Origin: Terriglobia bacterium
GTDB lineage: Bacteria > Acidobacteriota > Terriglobia > 20CM-2-55-15
Length of the DNA stretch: 64,000 nucleotides
Reading direction: 5' to 3'
NCBI GenBank assembly: GCA_965198225.1
Contig: CBDAOY010000009.1
Coordinates: 768,001-832,000 of the forward strand
Both the position numbers and the translations under genes were made by a program. Each line of letters begins with the position of its first letter. Position 1 is the first letter of the stretch. This document shows, one piece after another, positions 21,043 to 30,139 of the stretch. The notes beneath the pieces were generated by a model that made no database searches, was not told where the DNA came from, and saw nothing but the letters and a program-made list of their open reading frames with translations.

Positions 21043-21076
21043 GAAAGAACTGAAGGAACGGTCGCCGGTGCCGTAG
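21043..21076 (+). pseudogene. Kinase 3'-tail remnant
   Basis: gaaagaactgaaggaacggtcgccggtgccgtag versus kinase 3 end gaagaactgaaggaacgggtgccggtgccttaa. Confidence 0.8.
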
Positions 21077-21167
21077 CCTTCGCTGAGCGACCTTCCAACC
21101 ACCGCAACTCTCTTCCGACTACAGGAATCAGCAGTCCTCGACAATCCACGGGGATGTATGGCCGCCG

Positions 21168-22829: not shown

Positions 22830-22927
22830 CCACGCCGCGGCCGGACAGCCAGTCAAATCCTTCACTGCAGATCAACGTCGTCTTGAACTGGACGGAAGAA
22901 CTAAAGGAACGGGTGCCGGTGCCCTAT
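22830..22927 (+). pseudogene. Kinase 3'-tail remnant
   Basis: Translates ...QINVVLNWTEELKERVPVP. Confidence 0.9.
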
Positions 22928-23343
22928 TCGCCGCCACCGAACCTCCCCGACAGCGTCTCGGTTTGCCACTCTGTTTCAATCCACATGCTCGAAAAGTCGT
23001 TAGCGTTCATCGGAAGTGCCGCGGCGAGCGCGGCCACAGGATGAGCGAGAAGTTCCCACCGCGGCAGTTTCGATAACAAGACTTGAAGGAGGGCGCTGGC
23101 CGAATGCGGCGGACGCGGTGGGCTATGGAGAAAGTAGCCGGAAGCGGGCCGGATCTGGAGTGGCGTTGGGGCGAGGAGGGGGACCGGCGGTCGATGACCG
23201 CGTCGATGGTGTGAATCGGAAAGCAGTTGGGTCGGGGAATCGGTGGGTTGAAAGGACGGGATCTGAGGGGATTTTGCAGCGGAGGCACACTCCGGCGAGG
23301 ACGTGGCTGAACCGCACGTCGGTCGTCGGTTTGTGAAGGAGGA

Positions 23344-24513
23344 TTAGGACGTATCGCATTGGAAGGCGAGCCTCGCTACGAGTTGCAGAGCGGTGAAGCG
23401 TTGGATGAGAGTCATCGGTCCCTGACAGTGCGGACACGACCAGGAAGAGTTCGAGGTGGTGGTTTCGTCAGATTCGACCCTCGGCATGGCATCGAGGAGT
23501 TGGCGACAGAGAGCGAAGGCGGCCGACCGGCGGTAGTTGGCCATGAATCCGAAGTGTCGGATGCGGACGAAGCCCTTCGGCAGAACGTGCAATAAGAACC
23601 GTCGGATGAACTCGTCGGCCGCGAGTGTCATGATGCGACTCTTGTTGCCATTGCGGTAATCCCGCCAACGGAACCGGACCCGGTTACCGTCAAACGAGAT
23701 CAATCGATGGTTGGAGATGGCGACCCGATGGGTGTAGCGGCCCAGGTAGCGGAGCACCTGTTCGGGGCCACCAAAGGGTCGTTTGATATAGACGACCCAG
23801 TTGCGGGAATGGATCTGGCGGCGGAACCGCCGAAAGTGTTGCGGTTCGCCGAAGGGTCGAATCGAGCCGGACAGTTCGAGCGAACCGTCGGCGATCGCTC
23901 GCCCGAGCCCGTCGATGAACTTGCCACGGAAGACTCGGGCGAGCACCTGCTTGGGGAGGAAGAAGCGCCCAGAACCCGGAATCCAACGGGACTGATCCGG
24001 AGCCAGTCCGCCGGCCGGTACCACGCAGTGGATGTGGGGATGGAACTCCAGGTTCTGACTCCAGGTATGCAGGATGCCGAAGAAGCCGATCCGGGCGCCG
24101 AGTCGTTTCGGATTGGCCGCCACCTCGATCATCGTGTCGGCCACGCTGCGAAACAGCAGGCTGTAGAGTAGGGCAGGGTTGTGGAAGAAGAACGGATGGA
24201 ACTGGTGCGGGACGGTGAACACGACGTGGAAGTAGGGGGTGGGCAGCAGTTCGGCTTCTCGTGCTTCGAGCCACCGTCGTCGGGCCTGGGTCTGACACTT
24301 CGGGCAGTGGCGGTTGCGGCAGGAGTTGAACGAGATTCCGGACTCCCGGCCACAATCGGCACACCGGTCGATGTGGCCACCCAGAGCCGCAGTACGACAG
24401 TTCAGGATGGCGCGCAGGACCTTGAGCTTCTGGATGCCGAGGCGGTGACGCTGGAGGAAACCTCGAACCCGGGCGCGGACGATGTCGGCCACCTCGACGG
24501 CGGGCCGGCTCAT
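23344..24513 (-). CDS. IS91 family transposase
   Basis: Translation identical to 8381-9550. Confidence 0.93.
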   Translation of the reverse strand: MSRPAVEVADIVRARVRGFLQRHRLGIQKLKVLRAILNCRTAALGGHIDRCADCGRESGISFNSCRNRHCPKCQTQARRRWLEAREAELLPTPYFHVVFTVPHQFHPFFFHNPALLYSLLFRSVADTMIEVAANPKRLGARIGFFGILHTWSQNLEFHPHIHCVVPAGGLAPDQSRWIPGSGRFFLPKQVLARVFRGKFIDGLGRAIADGSLELSGSIRPFGEPQHFRRFRRQIHSRNWVVYIKRPFGGPEQVLRYLGRYTHRVAISNHRLISFDGNRVRFRWRDYRNGNKSRIMTLAADEFIRRFLLHVLPKGFVRIRHFGFMANYRRSAAFALCRQLLDAMPRVESDETTTSNSSWSCPHCQGPMTLIQRFTALQLVARLAFQCDTS

Positions 24514-25400
24514 TCGCCTTTCTTCTTTCTCAGACGGGGAGACGGTCCCAGATCGGGAACCGGAAGAGAATCGATCGGGTTCACCACGCGCTGCATGTGC
24601 GCCTGAGACAAATGGAGATAGAGGGTCGTCGCTTCCAGATCGACATGACCCAACAGGAGCTGGATGGTTCGCAGGTCGGTTCCCCTCTCCAGCAGGTGGG
24701 TGGCCCAGCTGTGGCGCAGCGTATGTGGGGATACTTTCTTTTTGATGCCGGCACGTTGGGCGGCTTGTTGGACGGCGTACCAAACCGTCTTCACATCGAT
24801 GGGCTGTCCGGGCCGGGTCCGGAGCAAACTGGGGAAGAGGTACTCGCCGGGTTTCCGCCAACGCCAGTAGTCGCGCAGGACTTCCAGCAGTTTCGGTGAC
24901 AGCGGCACGTCGCGGTCGCGATTGCCTTTACCCTGCCTCACATGGATCACCATGCGTTCGCTATCGACGTCCTCGACCTTCAGACGACACAGCTCGGCCC
25001 GCCGCAGTCCCGTCGAATACAAGGTCATCAGGATGACGAAGTGATAGGCACTGTTGGCGGAGGCCAGCAGTTGCGCCACTTCCTCTTCGCTCAGAATCGT
25101 GGGCAACCGGGACGGCTGTTTCGGATAGACCAGATCGACCTGGTGATAGGGACGGCGAAGCACCTTCACGTAGAAGAACCGGAGTGCGGCGATCCGTCCG
25201 ATGATGGTGTCGACAGCGAGCTTGCGCTCCTGAAGCAGATGCAGCTGGTACTGCCGCATCTGTTCCTGTTCGAGCTTGTCGGGGGACTTCCCGAAGTAGC
25301 GGGCGAAGTCTTCGACCGCGTGAAGATACAGCCGAATCGTAGCGGGTGAGTAGTTCCGGCGCTGGAGTTCCTCCAGCATCCGTTGTCGCAGCTTCGTCAT
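24510..25400 (-). CDS. Tyrosine recombinase/integrase
   Basis: Translation identical to 9547-10437. Confidence 0.95.
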   Translation of the reverse strand: MTKLRQRMLEELQRRNYSPATIRLYLHAVEDFARYFGKSPDKLEQEQMRQYQLHLLQERKLAVDTIIGRIAALRFFYVKVLRRPYHQVDLVYPKQPSRLPTILSEEEVAQLLASANSAYHFVILMTLYSTGLRRAELCRLKVEDVDSERMVIHVRQGKGNRDRDVPLSPKLLEVLRDYWRWRKPGEYLFPSLLRTRPGQPIDVKTVWYAVQQAAQRAGIKKKVSPHTLRHSWATHLLERGTDLRTIQLLLGHVDLEATTLYLHLSQAHMQRVVNPIDSLPVPDLGPSPRLRKKKGE

Positions 25401-25629: not shown

Positions 25630-25719
25630 GTGATCCAACCCGGTTCAGCGCTCGCGCACTATGAAGTCGTTTCTGCCCTCGGCAAGGGCGGCATGGGCGA
25701 GGTGTAGAAAGCCCGGGAA
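25630..25719 (+). pseudogene. Kinase 5'-head remnant with nonsense codon
   Basis: [28 protein letters not shown] (TGG->TAG), preceded by ctgattgacc...cgtagtct. Confidence 0.9.
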
Positions 25720-25858: not shown

Positions 25859-26695
25859 ATGAGTGGCAAACGCCAGATCGACTACGGGGAGGTTCGGCGC
25901 TACTTTGCTCAAGCTGGCGCCGACACGGCGGCTTGTGCGAGCTACATGGCCCACGCACAAGACTTGCCCGAAAACGCTGTTCGTTATCGCTTCCGGAAGG
26001 AAGGCGCAGCGATACGCGACTGGCTCGATGTCGGGGGGCCGCAAGCGCGGGTACTCGACTTGGGCTGTGGGTCGGGGACCTGGACCGAGCTCTTCGCTCA
26101 GCGCTTCGGCAGCGTCATCGGGATCGAACAGAGCCCTGCGATGCTGGTCGCTGCAAAAACGAAACTCATGGGACGGTCGAACGTGGAGCTTCTGAACCAG
26201 GACGTTCGAGAGCCATTGCCACCGGGGCCATTTGATCTCGTCTTTTTAGGAGGGATCTGCATGTACCTGAGCGACGCTGACACGATCGCGCTCGTTCAAG
26301 CAGTTATCGAACGTCTCGGTGATCGAGGGCGGGTCGTTTTACGGGAGACTACCGTTGCGAACGGATACGAGCACGTAGAGGGCGAGTATCATGCGATCTA
26401 TCGCAGCGTCGACGTTTACCGAAGGCTCTTTCGAGAGGCTGGCTTGTCGCGCGTCGACACACGTCGAAACTACGCCTATACCTATATGGAGATCGCAGTC
26501 GAACTCGTCGAACTGCGACGCCGCTACCTGCGTATGCTGCCGTACACGTCACCTTTTCTTGGCGCTTTGACCTGGTGGTCGCTACGGGCTACGTCGCCCG
26601 TATGCTTCGCGCTTCTTCCCCGAGCGGCGGCGTGGCTTCGTGTGTGTTGGCCAAAGCTCCAGAACCATTTTTTTATGCTAGAGAATGCAAGTTGA
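25859..26695 (+). CDS. Class I SAM-dependent methyltransferase (phosphoethanolamine N-methyltransferase-like)
   Basis: VLDLGCGSG motif I; DLVF...MYLSD, LRET and YR motifs. Confidence 0.85.
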   Translation: MSGKRQIDYGEVRRYFAQAGADTAACASYMAHAQDLPENAVRYRFRKEGAAIRDWLDVGGPQARVLDLGCGSGTWTELFAQRFGSVIGIEQSPAMLVAAKTKLMGRSNVELLNQDVREPLPPGPFDLVFLGGICMYLSDADTIALVQAVIERLGDRGRVVLRETTVANGYEHVEGEYHAIYRSVDVYRRLFREAGLSRVDTRRNYAYTYMEIAVELVELRRRYLRMLPYTSPFLGALTWWSLRATSPVCFALLPRAAAWLRVCWPKLQNHFFMLENAS

Positions 26696-26722
26696 CGCTC
26701 TGGCAGATTCAGAGAGATCTAC

Positions 26723-28585
26723 GTGAAAACCGACCGATGGAATCTCACGCCCAATAAGCGCCCTGAAAGTATCCGCAAAGCGGTGATTCTCGCCGCCGGT
26801 GTTGGCAACCGGCTTCGTCCATTCACCAACAAGCTTCCAAAATGCCTGGTTCAGGTGGCCGGTGTTCCCATCCTGGACAATACACTCGCGCATCTGGCCG
26901 CGCTCGGTACCGAGGAAATCGCTATCGTCGTCGGCCACCACAAGGAGATCATCATCGAGCGGTTCGGCGCGAGTTACCTCGGAATGTCGATGACCTACGT
27001 CGTGTCGGAGGACTACGAGAAAACCAACAACATCTATTCGTTATGGCTCGCCCGTGATCATCTCACTCAAGACGTACTGCTGCTGGAGGCAGATGTTTTT
27101 TTCGAGCGCGCGGTTTTGGAGCGACTACTTTTGCAGAGTGGCGGCAACCTGGCCATCGTGTCGCGGCACCAGAGTTGGATGTCTGGCACGGTCGTCAGTG
27201 TGGATGCTCGTGGTCGCATCCAGGCAACGATCGACTCCCAGAATCAAGAGGATGGCTTCGATTATGCAAAGTTCTTCAAGACGGCCAACATCTACCTCTT
27301 TCGTCAGGACTTCCTCAACCGGTATTTCCTGCCGCAGCTGGAAGCCTACATCACGTCTAGAGACTACGACGAATACTACGAATCGATTCTCATCACGCTG
27401 GGGCACCGAGGCAAGAACAACCTCGTCGCTGTGGATTGTGACGACCTGAAGTGGTACGAGATCGATGATGAAAGCGACCGATTGGCGGCTGAGTATCTAT
27501 TCAACTCAGGCGAGGAGCGTTACGACCACGTCCAGAGCCAACACGGGGGGTATTGGCGCTTTGGGTTTGCCGATCACGCTTACTTGTACAATCCGTATTA
27601 CCCGCCTAAGCCGATGTTCGCGGATTTTGAGAACAACCTGCGCGAGCTGGTGCTCAACTATCCTCCCGGACAGGAGGTTGTCGCCCGGCTCGCCGGCACT
27701 TTGATCGGGCAACCTTCCTCTCGCATTCTGGTTGGAAACGGGGCTTCGGAACTGATTAAGATCATCTCTGGCCGCCTTCCCGGACCGATCGCCTGTCCTG
27801 TACCCTCGTTCAACGAGTACGAGGACGCTGCGCGAGCGGGGGCCTTCGTCCCGTTCGAACTGCCCTCTCCCACTTTCGAACTCGACGTAGATGCCTTTGC
27901 CCAACGGGTTCTCGCGACCGAGGCAAGACTGGCCATCGTAGTGACACCTAACAATCCCACCTCGTTGGCGGTGCCCAGAACAGACATCTTGCGCCTTGCC
28001 GCGAAACTCGAATCGACCGAATGCATGCTGGTTGTCGATGAATCCTTCATCGACTTTGCATACGACTATCAGGAGTTGAGCGTGGAGGGTTGGGTTGACA
28101 GCGTTCCTAACCTCGCGGTCCTCAAGAGCTTGAGCAAGTCCTTCGGGATCGGCGGACTGCGGCTGGGCTATCTCCTGACGGCCAATGAGGGACTCGCGAA
28201 CGCGGTGCGCGCCGAGTTGCACATCTGGAACATCAACGGTTTCGCGGAAGCCTTCCTGCGCCAGGCACCGCGCTGGCGCAAGGCGTTCAGGCAGAGTTGC
28301 GCTCTGGTTCGCGACCACTGCGATGAGCTCTACGAAGGGTTGAACGAGATCCCCGGAATGACAGCATATCGACCTCAGGCTAACTTCGTATTGTGTCGTC
28401 TCCCAGCTCCAGGCCCATCCGGTCCGGTCATCGCGAAACGGCTCTTCGTGGAGAACAACATCTTCGTCAAGCACTGCGCTGGTAAGCACATGTCGGATGC
28501 GGATCGGTATCTGCGCATCGCCAGCAGGACGGCCGCGGACAACCATATGCTCGTCGAAGCGATGCGGCAATGCCTGACCCAATGA
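26723..28585 (+). CDS. Fusion of LicC-like cytidylyltransferase and PLP-dependent class I/II (CobD/HisC-like) enzyme
   Basis: AVILAAGVGNRLRP..PKCL, TNNIYSL, WYEIDD; then GNGASE, PNNPT, VDESF, SLSKSFGIGGLRLG. Confidence 0.9.
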   Translation: MKTDRWNLTPNKRPESIRKAVILAAGVGNRLRPFTNKLPKCLVQVAGVPILDNTLAHLAALGTEEIAIVVGHHKEIIIERFGASYLGMSMTYVVSEDYEKTNNIYSLWLARDHLTQDVLLLEADVFFERAVLERLLLQSGGNLAIVSRHQSWMSGTVVSVDARGRIQATIDSQNQEDGFDYAKFFKTANIYLFRQDFLNRYFLPQLEAYITSRDYDEYYESILITLGHRGKNNLVAVDCDDLKWYEIDDESDRLAAEYLFNSGEERYDHVQSQHGGYWRFGFADHAYLYNPYYPPKPMFADFENNLRELVLNYPPGQEVVARLAGTLIGQPSSRILVGNGASELIKIISGRLPGPIACPVPSFNEYEDAARAGAFVPFELPSPTFELDVDAFAQRVLATEARLAIVVTPNNPTSLAVPRTDILRLAAKLESTECMLVVDESFIDFAYDYQELSVEGWVDSVPNLAVLKSLSKSFGIGGLRLGYLLTANEGLANAVRAELHIWNINGFAEAFLRQAPRWRKAFRQSCALVRDHCDELYEGLNEIPGMTAYRPQANFVLCRLPAPGPSGPVIAKRLFVENNIFVKHCAGKHMSDADRYLRIASRTAADNHMLVEAMRQCLTQ

Positions 28586-29214
28586 CGAGTCCATGCAGCC
28601 GACGAAGCGCCCTGTCTTTTGTCTACGACAGAGCCAACCTGCTGACGTTGGCGGGGCTAGTGTGCGGAATCCTGGCTATTTGGTTCAGCGCGCGCGGCGC
28701 CTATCCCGCCGCCACCACAGCCCTGCTGTGGGCGCTGTTTTGCGATTGGTTCGATGGTCCGCTGGCTCGGCGAATGACCGACCGGACCGACGAGGACCGG
28801 GCCTTCGGCGCACAACTCGACTCCCTGACCGATATCGTATCCAGCGGCGTCGCTCCCGCGGTGCTCCTGATCAGCATTGGCAACTTCGACCCCTGGTTTC
28901 TACCAGGCGCTTTTCTGCTGGTGGTCGCGGGAGCGATTCGGCTGGCTCACTTCAACATTTTTGGCACCGACGGTGGCGCATACAGCGGCCTGCCGATCGA
29001 CAGCAATATCATCGTTGTGACGGCTCTGTTTCCTTTCCGTGAGCTGCTCGGGCACGCCACGTTCTCGTGGGCTCTTTACGTTGCGGTCGCCACACTCGCC
29101 ATCCTAAACGTTGCCCCCTTTCGGATGCCGAAGCTGGTGGGTGGCTGGTACTACATTGTCGCGATCTACGTCGTTGCCATGACCGCACTGAACCTGAGCT
29201 CATTAACGCGCTGA
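28582..29214 (+). CDS. CDP-alcohol phosphatidyltransferase
   Basis: ANLLTL and DWFDGPLARR...FGAQLDSLTD signature; multiple TM segments. Confidence 0.92.
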   Translation: MTSPCSRRSALSFVYDRANLLTLAGLVCGILAIWFSARGAYPAATTALLWALFCDWFDGPLARRMTDRTDEDRAFGAQLDSLTDIVSSGVAPAVLLISIGNFDPWFLPGAFLLVVAGAIRLAHFNIFGTDGGAYSGLPIDSNIIVVTALFPFRELLGHATFSWALYVAVATLAILNVAPFRMPKLVGGWYYIVAIYVVAMTALNLSSLTR

Positions 29215-29257
29215 GCTGGACTCAAAAGTCGCGGCATGATTCCAGTGAATCAACATT

Positions 29258-29290
29258 GAAGCACTGAAGGAACGGGTGCCGGTGCCATGA
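29258..29290 (+). pseudogene. Kinase 3'-tail remnant
   Basis: EALKERVPVP* (gaagcactgaaggaacgggtgccggtgccatga). Confidence 0.85.
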
Positions 29291-29351
29291 CCTGTGAGAC
29301 TCCCCCAAAAATCTCCTCAGCGGTGTTTCTGAGAATCCACATCCCCGAGAA

Positions 29352-30139
29352 GTCGTTAGCGTTCATCGGAAGTGCCGCGGCGAGCGCGGCCACAGGATGA
29401 GCGAGAAGTTCCCACCGCGGCAGTTTCGATAACAAGACTTGAAGGAGGGCGCTGGCCGAATGCGGCGGACGCGGTGGGCTATGGAGAAAGTAGCCGGAAG
29501 CGGGCCGGATCTGGAGTGGCGTTGGGGCGAGGAGGGGGACCGGCGGTCGATGACCGCGTCGATGGTGTGAATCGGAAAGCAGTTGGGTCGGGGAATCGGT
29601 GGGTTGAAAGGACGGGATCTGAGGGGATTTTGCAGCGGAGGCACACTCCGGCGAGGACGTGGCTGAACCGCACGTCGGTCGTCGGTTTGTGAAGGAGGAT
29701 TAGGACGTATCGCATTGGAAGGCGAGCCTCGCTACGAGTTGCAGAGCGGTGAAGCGTTGGATGAGAGTCATCGGTCCCTGACAGTGCGGACACGACCAGG
29801 AAGAGTTCGAGGTGGTGGTTTCGTCAGATTCGACCCTCGGCATGGCATCGAGGAGTTGGCGACAGAGAGCGAAGGCGGCCGACCGGCGGTAGTTGGCCAT
29901 GAATCCGAAGTGTCGGATGCGGACGAAGCCCTTCGGCAGAACGTGCAATAAGAACCGTCGGATGAACTCGTCGGCCGCGAGTGTCATGATGCGACTCTTG
30001 TTGCCATTGCGGTAATCCCGCCAACGGAACCGGACCCGGTTACCGTCAAACGAGATCAATCGATGGTTGGAGATGGCGACCCGATGGGTGTAGCGGCCCA
30101 GGTAGCGGAGCACCTGTTCGGGGCCACCAAAGGGTCGTT
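29352..30139 (-). mobile_element. Truncated copy 3 of the IS91/recombinase element (3' part of transposase only)
   Basis: Matches 8033-8820, then stops at an internal GTCGTT. Confidence 0.9.

What the first reader, a model, noticed from the sequence alone, without database searches (positions are those of the whole stretch)
25859..29214. Possible bacterial phosphobase-methylation (Kennedy-like) route to methylated phospholipids
Seen: three co-oriented genes encode a methyltransferase, a cytidylyltransferase-PLP enzyme fusion and a CDP-alcohol transferase. The methyltransferase has DLVF..MYLSD...LRET...YR, recalling the plant phosphoethanolamine N-methyltransferase first domain (DLIF..MYLSD...FRES...HYR; recalled, not searched). 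Established: CobD-type enzymes decarboxylate Thr-phosphate (some Ser-phosphate), and LicC makes CDP-choline. Inference: phosphoserine to phosphoethanolamine to (methyl)choline phosphate to CDP-base to PC/PE-type lipid, distinct from the PmtA and Pcs routes.
Basis: partly seen in the sequence, partly recalled or inferred. Interest (0 to 1): 0.7.

Follow-up and report, generated by a model that had tools for sequence, protein, structure and literature searches.

The report
Mobile CDP-ethanolamine lipid headgroup cassette
Three genes that move together between unrelated bacteria appear to build a membrane-lipid headgroup from phosphoserine by the CDP-activation route typical of eukaryotes and then methylate it, which, if confirmed, would be a new choline-independent way for bacteria to make phosphatidylcholine-like lipids.

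Summary
Three intact co-oriented genes encode a SAM methyltransferase, a LicC/PntC-type cytidylyltransferase fused to a CobD-like PLP enzyme, and a PssA-like CDP-alcohol transferase. They form a conserved, mobile unit. Of 67 scorable metagenome loci, 53 have the CDP-alcohol transferase directly after the fusion and 11 have LicD instead, which points to a soluble CDP-amino-alcohol donor. I found no phosphonate, cobamide or choline-kinase link. The cytidylyltransferase has the Glu/Glu pocket of PntC, which takes a primary amine, not LicC's Asp/Asp. The methyltransferase is a PEAMT paralog outside the PEAMT-MT1 clade. It lacks several MT1 motifs and carries a basic, hydrophobic helical insert. 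Four related loci encode a separate PEAMT-MT1-like gene beside it. Best model, all chemistry inferred: phosphoserine → phosphoethanolamine → CDP-ethanolamine → PE-type lipid, N-methylated late at the membrane. This is a new variant of the Kennedy-type route, and I did not find it in ten literature searches. Substrate, lipid acceptor and degree of methylation are untested.

The parts
25859..26695 (+). SAM-dependent N-methyltransferase, a paralog of PEAMT domain 1. Invariant Y15, Y136 (aligns with AtPMT Tyr131), R162-E163-[ST]164, Y177, Y181-R182. Basic, hydrophobic helical insert at about aa 205-264.
26723..27508 (+). N-terminal domain of the fusion: LicC/PntC-type cytidylyltransferase. E122 and E220 align with Tde-PntC E104 and E196.
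27509..28585 (+). C-terminal domain of the fusion: CobD-like fold-type-I PLP enzyme (invariant DESF 439-442 and KSxSK 468-472), predicted O-phosphoserine decarboxylase.
28570..29214 (+). Six-helix membrane CDP-alcohol phosphotransferase, PssA-like fold. Family-specific invariant W54, W60, D144 and N146. Likely start 28582 (ATGA coupling).
25630..25707 (+). Relic of the 5' end of a Ser/Thr kinase gene, stopped after the glycine-rich loop, upstream of the cassette.
29249..29290 (+). Relic of a kinase-type 3' end (..LKERVPVP-stop). Found about 50 nt after the cassette in 5 of 8 relatives checked.
23344..25400 (-). IS91-family transposase plus tyrosine recombinase, left of the cassette. Multi-copy in the genome; probably incidental.
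29334..30139 (-). Truncated second copy of the same element (about 99.6% identical), right of the cassette.

Best explanation
The cassette builds an amino-alcohol phosphate headgroup de novo and installs it on a membrane lipid by Kennedy-type chemistry, with methylation late. (1) The PLP domain decarboxylates O-phosphoserine, supplied by host SerC, to phosphoethanolamine. (2) The fused cytidylyltransferase makes CDP-ethanolamine. (3) The membrane CDP-alcohol transferase moves phosphoethanolamine to a lipid alcohol, most simply diacylglycerol. (4) The methyltransferase, held at the membrane by its basic hydrophobic insert, N-methylates after cytidylylation, on CDP-ethanolamine or on the PE-type lipid, giving N-methylated PE or PC. 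Shown here: genes, folds, residues, linkage, mobility and selection. Inferred: every substrate and the order of steps.
For: PLP domain: the profile scores 6OUX 188 bits, above 3FTB 151, Salmonella CobD 141 and the other histidinol-phosphate aminotransferase entries at 101 or less; NCBIfam CobD 175 versus HisC 131. That 6OUX is the Ser-P decarboxylase SMUL_1544 is recalled. A bacterial PLP Ser-P to Etn-P decarboxylase, Cj1436, is stated in PMC12409886 (passage). SerC is over cut-off in G000 and 4 of 5 genomes. No CbiB in 0 of 5 genomes and no choline kinase over cut-off in 0 of 5. NTase: best PDB hits are LicC 1JYK and PntC 6PD1. Glu at the two amine-pocket positions in 35 of 36 and 36 of 36 rows, as in PntC; LicC has Asp/Asp, which may give room for choline (PMC6697681 passages). 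Donor swap: of 67 of 80 metagenome loci with at least 250 nt downstream, 53 have the CDP-alcohol transferase next, 11 have LicD and 3 neither. LicD appears both in a deep clade and once nested among transferase loci, and again in a split-gene locus in G339. The MT is in 37 of 44 scorable transferase loci, in two orientations (12 upstream, 25 downstream convergent), and in 0 of 11 LicD loci. The MT insert is basic in 48 of 48 rows (net +3 to +8, median +6; 46% hydrophobic), against -4 to 0 and 29-39% for the roughly cut C-terminal lids of 7 two-domain PEAMT-like proteins. The hosts already have Psd (6 of 6), and G000 has psd-pssA adjacent, so plain PE alone would be redundant. Precedent for N-methylation of a CDP-intermediate: FtaC (10.64898/2026.02.12.704994, abstract, introduction and passages).
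Against: No enzyme was assayed. The transferase's only clear solved relative is PssA, which uses CDP-DAG, not DAG (human CHPT1 E 0.2). The Glu/Asp rule rests on two solved enzymes, and that paper says sterics, not one residue pair, set selectivity. Two NTase-deleted copies keep the other genes intact (G353 and L070). L080 and L084 carry the MT beside fusions of about 46% identity, and L080 groups with the LicD clade; their downstream gene is not on the contig, so the MT may not be confined to the lipid branch. 7 of 44 transferase loci lack the MT nearby. The scorable set is biased toward MT-positive loci, because any locus showing the MT was counted and 11 short ones were dropped. By structure, protein N-terminal methyltransferases (Z 21.9-23.6) score above nematode PMT1 (Z 20.8) and PmtA (17.3). 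No DAG-generating gene recurs in the loci.
Confidence: 0.5

Rival explanations
1. One reading: the MT is a single-domain PEAMT that methylates free phosphoethanolamine to (methyl)phosphocholine, the NTase then makes CDP-choline, and the transferase makes PC.
For: AtPMT1/2 are the top sequence hits and AtPMT2 is the top Foldseek hit. MY, RE[ST] and YR are kept. The NTase keeps aromatic residues W152, Y218 and Y219 and scores LicC (92 bits) above PntC (82). In G157, G230 and G240 the MT sits beside a stand-alone NTase with no PLP gene among the neighbours called.
Against: Glu/Glu pocket. Loss of NW and of the SG..R..NPT loop (the phosphate-binding role of S159, S164 and R169 is recalled; the paper was not held). 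The quick tree puts the MT in a 36-row clade (99) apart from the 12-row MT1 clade (100). A closer PEAMT homolog (E 9e-44 to AtPMT2; only 25% identical to the window MT) is added next to it in 4 loci on two branches, which suggests a different job. Fusing the decarboxylase to the NTase favours direct hand-over of the unmethylated product (inference).
Confidence: 0.2
2. Same logic, different chemistry: the amino alcohol is aminopropanol-phosphate (from Thr-P) or serinol-phosphate (by transamination of DHAP), and/or the acceptor is not DAG but ceramide, an ether lipid or a soluble polyol. The product would be an unusual (methylated) aminolipid or phosphodiester.
For: CobD-type enzymes act on Thr-P, and the closest curated model is CobD, though below cut-off. 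Serinol-P formation by Cj1437 is stated in PMC12409886. Hosts already make PE. CDP-alcohol transferases also make soluble phosphodiesters (IPCT/DIPPS; established knowledge, and 4MND appears weakly). 9 of 11 LicD loci carry an extra class I/II aminotransferase upstream.
Against: No recurrent threonine kinase, ATP-grasp or sphingolipid gene among recurring neighbours. 6OUX outscores Salmonella CobD by 47 bits.
Confidence: 0.2
3. The transferase works like PssA or Pcs (CDP-DAG plus a free amino alcohol or serine), and the NTase is dispensable or serves another product.
For: PssA fold and best family hits. Two NTase-deleted copies exist.
Against: Below the PssA cut-off (85 against 107) and far below Pcs (35 against 350). 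PssA's RLARF and GLP.P become RL[SA][YH]F and GL..D.N. The NTase is under purifying selection as part of the fusion, and the LicD swap needs a soluble CDP donor. No phosphatase recurs in the loci.
Confidence: 0.07
4. A phosphonate pathway: CMP-aminoethylphosphonate is made and methylated for a phosphonolipid, as with PntC-AEPT.
For: PntC-like pocket, and the same NTase-plus-PLP architecture as Tde1415.
Against: The PLP domain is class I/II CobD-like, while Tde1415's is class V. No PEP mutase among the 65 neighbour proteins scanned. G000's only PEP-mutase-family hit is far below the PepM cut-off (99 against 320 bits) and reads EDHVQAKH rather than the recalled PepM EDK motif.
Confidence: 0.03

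Closest known systems
Treponema denticola CDP-choline pathway (LicCA + Cpt)
   Same: Soluble CDP-base donor made by a LicC-type enzyme fused to the enzyme that makes the phosphobase, then a CDP-alcohol transferase to lipid (passages of PMC8590670, PMC6805115 and PMC11409717, which calls it the only bacterial case).
   Different: Entry is by a PLP decarboxylase, not a choline kinase, so no outside choline is needed. The pocket is primary-amine type and a methyltransferase is included. Sequence kinship to Cpt was not tested (the Cpt paper was not held).
Plant/nematode/Plasmodium phosphobase methylation (PEAMT/PMT)
   Same: MT core homologous to PMT domain 1, with MY, RE[ST] and YR motifs; same likely end product class.
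   Different: Separate clade, GG for NW, no SG..R..NPT loop, basic hydrophobic insert. Phosphoethanolamine would come from Ser-P decarboxylation rather than serine decarboxylase plus kinase (established knowledge).
PntC-AEPT (Tde1415) phosphonate tailoring
   Same: Cytidylyltransferase-PLP fusion with the Glu/Glu amine pocket.
   Different: Class I/II CobD-like PLP domain; no PepM link found.
CobD / SMUL_1544 (6OUX) / Cj1436 phospho-amino-acid decarboxylases
   Same: Fold and PLP motifs.
   Different: Fused to a cytidylyltransferase; CbiB not found in 5 of 5 carrier genomes searched.
C. difficile FtaABCD (CDP-threonine, FtaC N-methyltransferase)
   Same: Phospho-amino-acid-derived CDP intermediate, N-methylation after cytidylylation, then phosphotransfer.
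   Different: No decarboxylase; the acceptor is a flagellin glycan and FtaD lacks the CDP-alcohol motif. Homology of FtaC to this MT was not tested.
PmtA and Pcs routes to PC
   Same: Possible same products; PmtA methylates at the lipid level.
   Different: PmtA (8YS9) ranks only 44th by structure (Z 17.3); the transferase scores 35 bits on Pcs against a cut-off of 350.

Membership tests
PEAMT domain 1 (MT1) | Class I SAM fold with the MY tyrosine, RE[ST] and YR motifs | tested here: met
   Y136, R162, E163, Y181 and R182 in 48 of 48 rows; aligned to AtPMT
PEAMT domain 1 (MT1) | NW(L) after beta4 and the SG..R..NPT loop seen in MT1-type proteins | tested here: not met
   G131-G132 in 48 of 48 rows; no NPT. 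NW, SG and NPT are in 9 of 9 two-domain MT1-type rows. Their ligand role is recalled.
PEAMT domain 1 (MT1) | Groups with MT1 sequences in a tree | tested here: not met
   Quick IQ-TREE, 113 rows, SH-aLRT only, careful search unfinished, no one-clade test
PEAMT domain 1 (MT1) | SAM-dependent methylation of free phosphoethanolamine | not testable with these tools
   Needs an assay
LicC phosphocholine cytidylyltransferase | Closest solved NTase relative | tested here: met
   1JYK E 3e-25, 6PD1 E 4e-22, other NTases 1e-17 or weaker
LicC phosphocholine cytidylyltransferase | Asp105/Asp192 choline pocket | tested here: not met
   Glu in 35 of 36 and 36 of 36 rows; the LicC Asp192 column lies in a weakly scored second segment
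Lic pathway | LicA choline kinase present | tested here: not met
   PF01633 over cut-off in 0 of 5 genomes; one kinase-like neighbour (L058) among 65 scanned
PntC phosphonate tailoring | PepM in the cluster or genome | tested here: not met
   G000 below the TIGR02320 cut-off; none among 65 neighbours. PF13714 hits in other carriers were not resolved.
CobD Thr-P decarboxylase (TIGR01140) | Curated score and cobamide context | tested here: not met
   175 against 290.55; CbiB in 0 of 5 genomes
Ser-P decarboxylase (SMUL_1544/Cj1436 type) | Closest solved relative is 6OUX | tested here: met
   188 bits, top of 10; the identity and activity of 6OUX are recalled
Ser-P decarboxylase (SMUL_1544/Cj1436 type) | Residues that select Ser-P over Thr-P, or decarboxylation over transamination | not tested
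   Papers not held
CDP-alcohol phosphotransferase superfamily | D-xx-DG-xx-AR..G-xxx-D-xxx-D motif and six-helix membrane fold | tested here: met
PssA (TIGR00473) / Pcs (NF045884) | Curated cut-off | tested here: not met
   85 against 107, and 35 against 350
DAG choline/ethanolamine phosphotransferase (Cpt, CEPT/CHPT) | Uses a CDP-base plus DAG; kinship to Cpt | tested here: inconclusive
   CHPT1 only E 0.2-0.4 by Foldseek; no Cpt sequence on hand

The most novel reading that the evidence does not exclude
A fully de novo, choline-independent Kennedy-type route from phosphoserine to phosphatidylcholine in bacteria. It would use a PssA-derived DAG phosphotransferase and a new membrane-bound class of N-methyltransferase descended from the PEAMT fold. 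In the loci that add a single-domain PEAMT-MT1 gene, it would be a bacterial version of the plant/nematode phosphobase pathway, and possibly a relative of its source.
Probability: 0.3. Interest if true: 0.8.

Novelty: new variant of a known kind. Interest (0 to 1): 0.6.

Why it matters
PC and methylated PE in bacteria are usually predicted from pmt or pcs genes (PMC6805115, passage), and the CDP-choline route is reported only for T. denticola, which needs outside choline (PMC11409717). This cassette would add a self-sufficient, horizontally moving route. Source labels on homologs name Rhodospirillaceae, Nitrospirales, Deltaproteobacteria, Nannocystaceae, Myxococcota and Anaerolineales. It would change how headgroup capacity is read from genomes, and it supplies three small, expressible enzymes whose assays decide the question. 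It also exposes bacterial single-domain PEAMT-MT1 homologs that bear on the origin of the eukaryotic pathway.

Tried and rejected
Species-genome neighbourhood scan: no result was obtained, so neighbourhoods rest on 80 of 173 confirmed metagenome loci and on genome searches inside the host's phylum. Named taxa come only from a few source labels.

Expression: four metatranscriptome assemblies hold short contigs over parts of the cassette, mostly under 99% identical. They are relatives, there was no silent-stretch control, and one run may be DNA, so I do not count them as evidence.

Promoter/terminator scan: 1 promoter-like and 5 terminator-like sites, at shuffle level.

IS91 as the carrier: rejected as likely incidental. 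The element has many copies in G000, and of the 12 related loci compared only L103 has a similar element, distant (63%) and on the other side.

Protein N-terminal methyltransferase: the best Z by structure, rejected on gene context.

Rosetta-stone fusions: P0319 (CDP-alcohol transferase plus MT) and P0374 (NTase plus MT) exist among distant MT hits. P0319's transferase shares only the motif with the window's (hhalign probability 1.6%) and P0374 is a long branch, so they are weak support.

ESM Atlas gave only generic names. Earlier scan findings: nothing. No PEAMT-MT1-like gene was found in G000 with the L037 query (no positive control).

Literature: ten searches listed no paper on this cassette or on a bacterial Ser-P to CDP-ethanolamine lipid route. 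Only listings and abstract starts were seen for most hits, and the library lacks most subscription journals. Key primary papers (AtPMT structures, SMUL_1544, Cj1436/1437, Cpt) were not held. The bioRxiv supplement on Fta homologs could not be seen and might list related clusters. No complex prediction was run.
Full report
1. Observation. The three ORFs are present, intact and co-oriented: methyltransferase (MT) 25859-26695, fusion 26723-28585 and CDP-alcohol phosphotransferase (CAP) 28570-29214. The gap between MT and fusion is 27 nt, and an in-frame ATG at 28582 overlaps the fusion's stop. No curated NCBIfam cut-off is reached among the families shown (CobD 175/291, PssA 85/107, Pcs 35/350). 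The quoted MT motifs align with Arabidopsis PMT domain 1, with Y136 on Tyr131. A rough dN/dS of 0.13-0.45 in 21 of 21 comparisons shows selection on all three proteins.

2. A conserved mobile unit. Close full-length homologs exist for each gene: the best 120 fusion hits are 55-98% identical, and the MT has about 100 clear family members among 109 hits. In the host's class, the fusion profile matches 8 of 300 genomes including G000; one of these lacks the NTase and one has split genes. Only 1 of 3 other genomes of the same genus matches, and that is the split LicD type. The MT profile matches 5 of 301 genomes of the phylum. Copies in five genomes of the class, one from another family, are 92-95% identical in DNA, and similarity stops within about 270 nt upstream and 80 nt downstream of the three genes. 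The cassette lies between relics of the head and tail of a Ser/Thr kinase gene. The tail relic follows the cassette in 5 of 8 relatives, and G000 has 58 head-like and 69 tail-like motifs. The flanking IS91 element is multi-copy and probably incidental.

3. Neighbourhoods. I analysed the best 80 of 173 confirmed metagenome loci (62 clusters at 95% identity, 27 at 80%). Of 67 with at least 250 nt after the fusion match, 53 have CAP next, 11 have LicD and 3 neither (one partial fusion match, one with CAP upstream, one short). CAP is seen after the fusion in 55 loci in all. Of those, 37 show the MT (12 upstream co-oriented, 25 downstream convergent), 7 with adequate flanks lack it, and 11 were too short to score. 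No LicD locus shows the MT (0 of 11; only 3 have 5 kb on both sides), but L080 and L084 have an MT beside a deep-branching fusion whose downstream gene is off the contig. LicD occurs in a deep clade, once nested among CAP loci, and after split NTase and PLP genes in G339. G619 has a more distant four-gene version: NTase and PLP on +, CAP on -, MT on +. G157, G230 and G240 have a stand-alone NTase plus MT, followed in two loci by a different CAP. The only other gene recurring widely next to the core is a class I/II aminotransferase, upstream in 9 of 11 LicD loci. No PepM, Ppd or choline kinase was seen among 65 neighbour proteins that I selected for scanning. LicD transfers the phosphobase from CDP-choline to glycans (PMC10434233, passages), so its exchange with CAP argues that the fusion makes a soluble CDP-amino-alcohol.

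4. PLP domain. It has invariant DESF and KSxSK motifs. The best solved relative is 6OUX (188 bits), ahead of 3FTB (151), Salmonella CobD (141) and the other histidinol-phosphate aminotransferase entries (101 or less). That 6OUX is the Ser-P decarboxylase SMUL_1544 is recalled; I saw only the 2016 paper's title in a reference list. Cj1436 as a Ser-P decarboxylase and Cj1437 as a serinol-P-forming enzyme are stated in PMC12409886 (passages). SerC is present in 4 of 5 carriers. CbiB and choline kinase were not found in the 5 genomes searched for each. Ser-P decarboxylation is therefore the most economical reading. Thr-P or transamination is not excluded.

5. Cytidylyltransferase. LicC and PntC are the closest solved enzymes. 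[quoted passage not shown] The window's E122 and E220 align with E104 and E196 and are Glu in 35 of 36 and 36 of 36 rows. This favours CDP-ethanolamine over CDP-choline. The same paper warns that aromatic-box residues do not decide selectivity.

6. Methyltransferase. By sequence profile the best solved relatives are PEAMTs, and by Foldseek E-value AtPMT2. By the wider structural search, N-terminal protein methyltransferases lead (Z 21.9-23.6), then nematode PMT1 (20.8), with PmtA at 17.3. All of these are amine N-methyltransferases. Against nine two-domain PEAMT-like proteins (unnamed, judged by architecture and motifs), the family keeps MY, RE[ST] and YR, but replaces NW by GG and lacks the SG..R..NPT loop. 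The AlphaFold model (pLDDT 83.8) shows two long helices (205-223, 232-259) inserted before the last strand. The segment 216-264 is basic and hydrophobic in 48 of 48 rows, unlike the soluble lids of PEAMT second domains. A quick tree separates the family from the MT1 clade. Four loci (three clusters at 80% identity, two branches) carry an extra gene next to it that does group with MT1 (support 100; E 9e-44 to AtPMT2), although it too lacks a clear Arg169 equivalent. I infer that the window MT is not the free-phosphobase enzyme and acts later, at the membrane. FtaC shows that N-methylation of a CDP-intermediate occurs in bacteria (10.64898/2026.02.12.704994; abstract, introduction, passages).

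7. Transferase. It has a six-helix fold (pLDDT 91.7). PssA is the only confident match, with family-specific invariant W54, W60, D144 and N146 and loss of PssA's RLARF arginine. An acidic and aromatic pocket would suit an amine-bearing CDP donor (inference). The acceptor is unknown. DAG is the default by analogy with T. denticola Cpt, which carries the same domain (PMC6805115, passage). G000 already has psd-pssA, and 5 of 5 other carriers have Psd, so the cassette probably adds something beyond PE. Its MT-less versions (7 loci) may simply make PE or another unmethylated lipid.

8. Results against my reading. CAP's kinship is with CDP-DAG-using enzymes. Two NTase-deleted copies exist. The MT may accompany LicD-clade fusions (L080, L084). 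Stand-alone NTase plus MT loci lack a decarboxylase nearby. No DAG source is linked. All chemistry is inferred.

9. Known versus new. It works like the T. denticola CDP-choline route and the eukaryotic phosphobase route, but fails membership of PEAMT-MT1, LicC, CobD, PssA, Pcs and PntC clusters on the features tested. Reviews of bacterial PC routes that I saw as passages (PMC8590670, PMC10434233, PMC6805115, PMC11409717) list Pmt, Pcs, CDP-choline and acylation routes only. Ten searches found no description of this cassette, within a library that lacks most subscription papers. PMC13261664 (passages) added only that Tyr131 lies in the AtPMT1 pocket.

10. Verdict. A real, mobile, conserved biosynthetic cassette and a new variant of the CDP-amino-alcohol pathway. 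Interest 0.6.

Noticed in passing
L037:6422-7105, L047:6572-7255, L051:6877-7518, L057:3587-4252 (all minus strand): Single-domain methyltransferases in these metagenome loci that group with eukaryote-type PEAMT domain 1 (E 9e-44 to AtPMT2 for L037), each next to the cassette's own MT. Candidate true bacterial PEAMTs.
   Followed up: partly
window 25630-25707 and 29249-29290; also 21045-21079 and 22896-22930: Cargo genes sit between relics of Ser/Thr kinase gene heads and tails. G000 has 58 head-like and 69 tail-like motifs. The kinase paralogs may act as recombination sites for cargo.
   Followed up: partly
L075, L076, L078, L079, L081, L082, L083, L086, L087: Deep-clade operon: class I/II aminotransferase, then the fusion, then LicD. 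The role of the extra aminotransferase is unexplained (possibly precursor supply).
   Followed up: partly
L107 (G353) and L070: Two different in-frame deletions remove the NTase domain and leave the PLP domain open, with MT and CAP sequence beside it.
   Followed up: partly
L089, L090, L091, L092, L093: Stand-alone NTase plus MT, in L089 and L090 followed by a different CDP-alcohol transferase and a convergent MFS transporter, with no decarboxylase nearby. G230 has three copies, two with a truncated MT. Possibly a salvage version.
   Followed up: partly
window 23344-25400 and 29334-30139: IS91-family transposase plus tyrosine recombinase element with about ten near-identical full or partial copies in G000, three of them (one partial) in this window.
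   Followed up: partly
P0319, P0331, P0374: Distant MT relatives fused to a CDP-alcohol transferase, a TagF-like glycerophosphotransferase (two MT domains) or an NTP transferase. This MT superfamily is repeatedly tied to CDP chemistry.
   Followed up: partly
L106 (G360), between MT and fusion: A 2.6-kb insertion separates the MT from the fusion.
   Followed up: no
L058:3668-4225: An EcKL/APH-like kinase gene directly after CAP in one locus.
   Followed up: no
L115:3043-4650 (G009): A more distant NTase-PLP fusion, cut by the contig end, so the architecture extends beyond this family.
   Followed up: no
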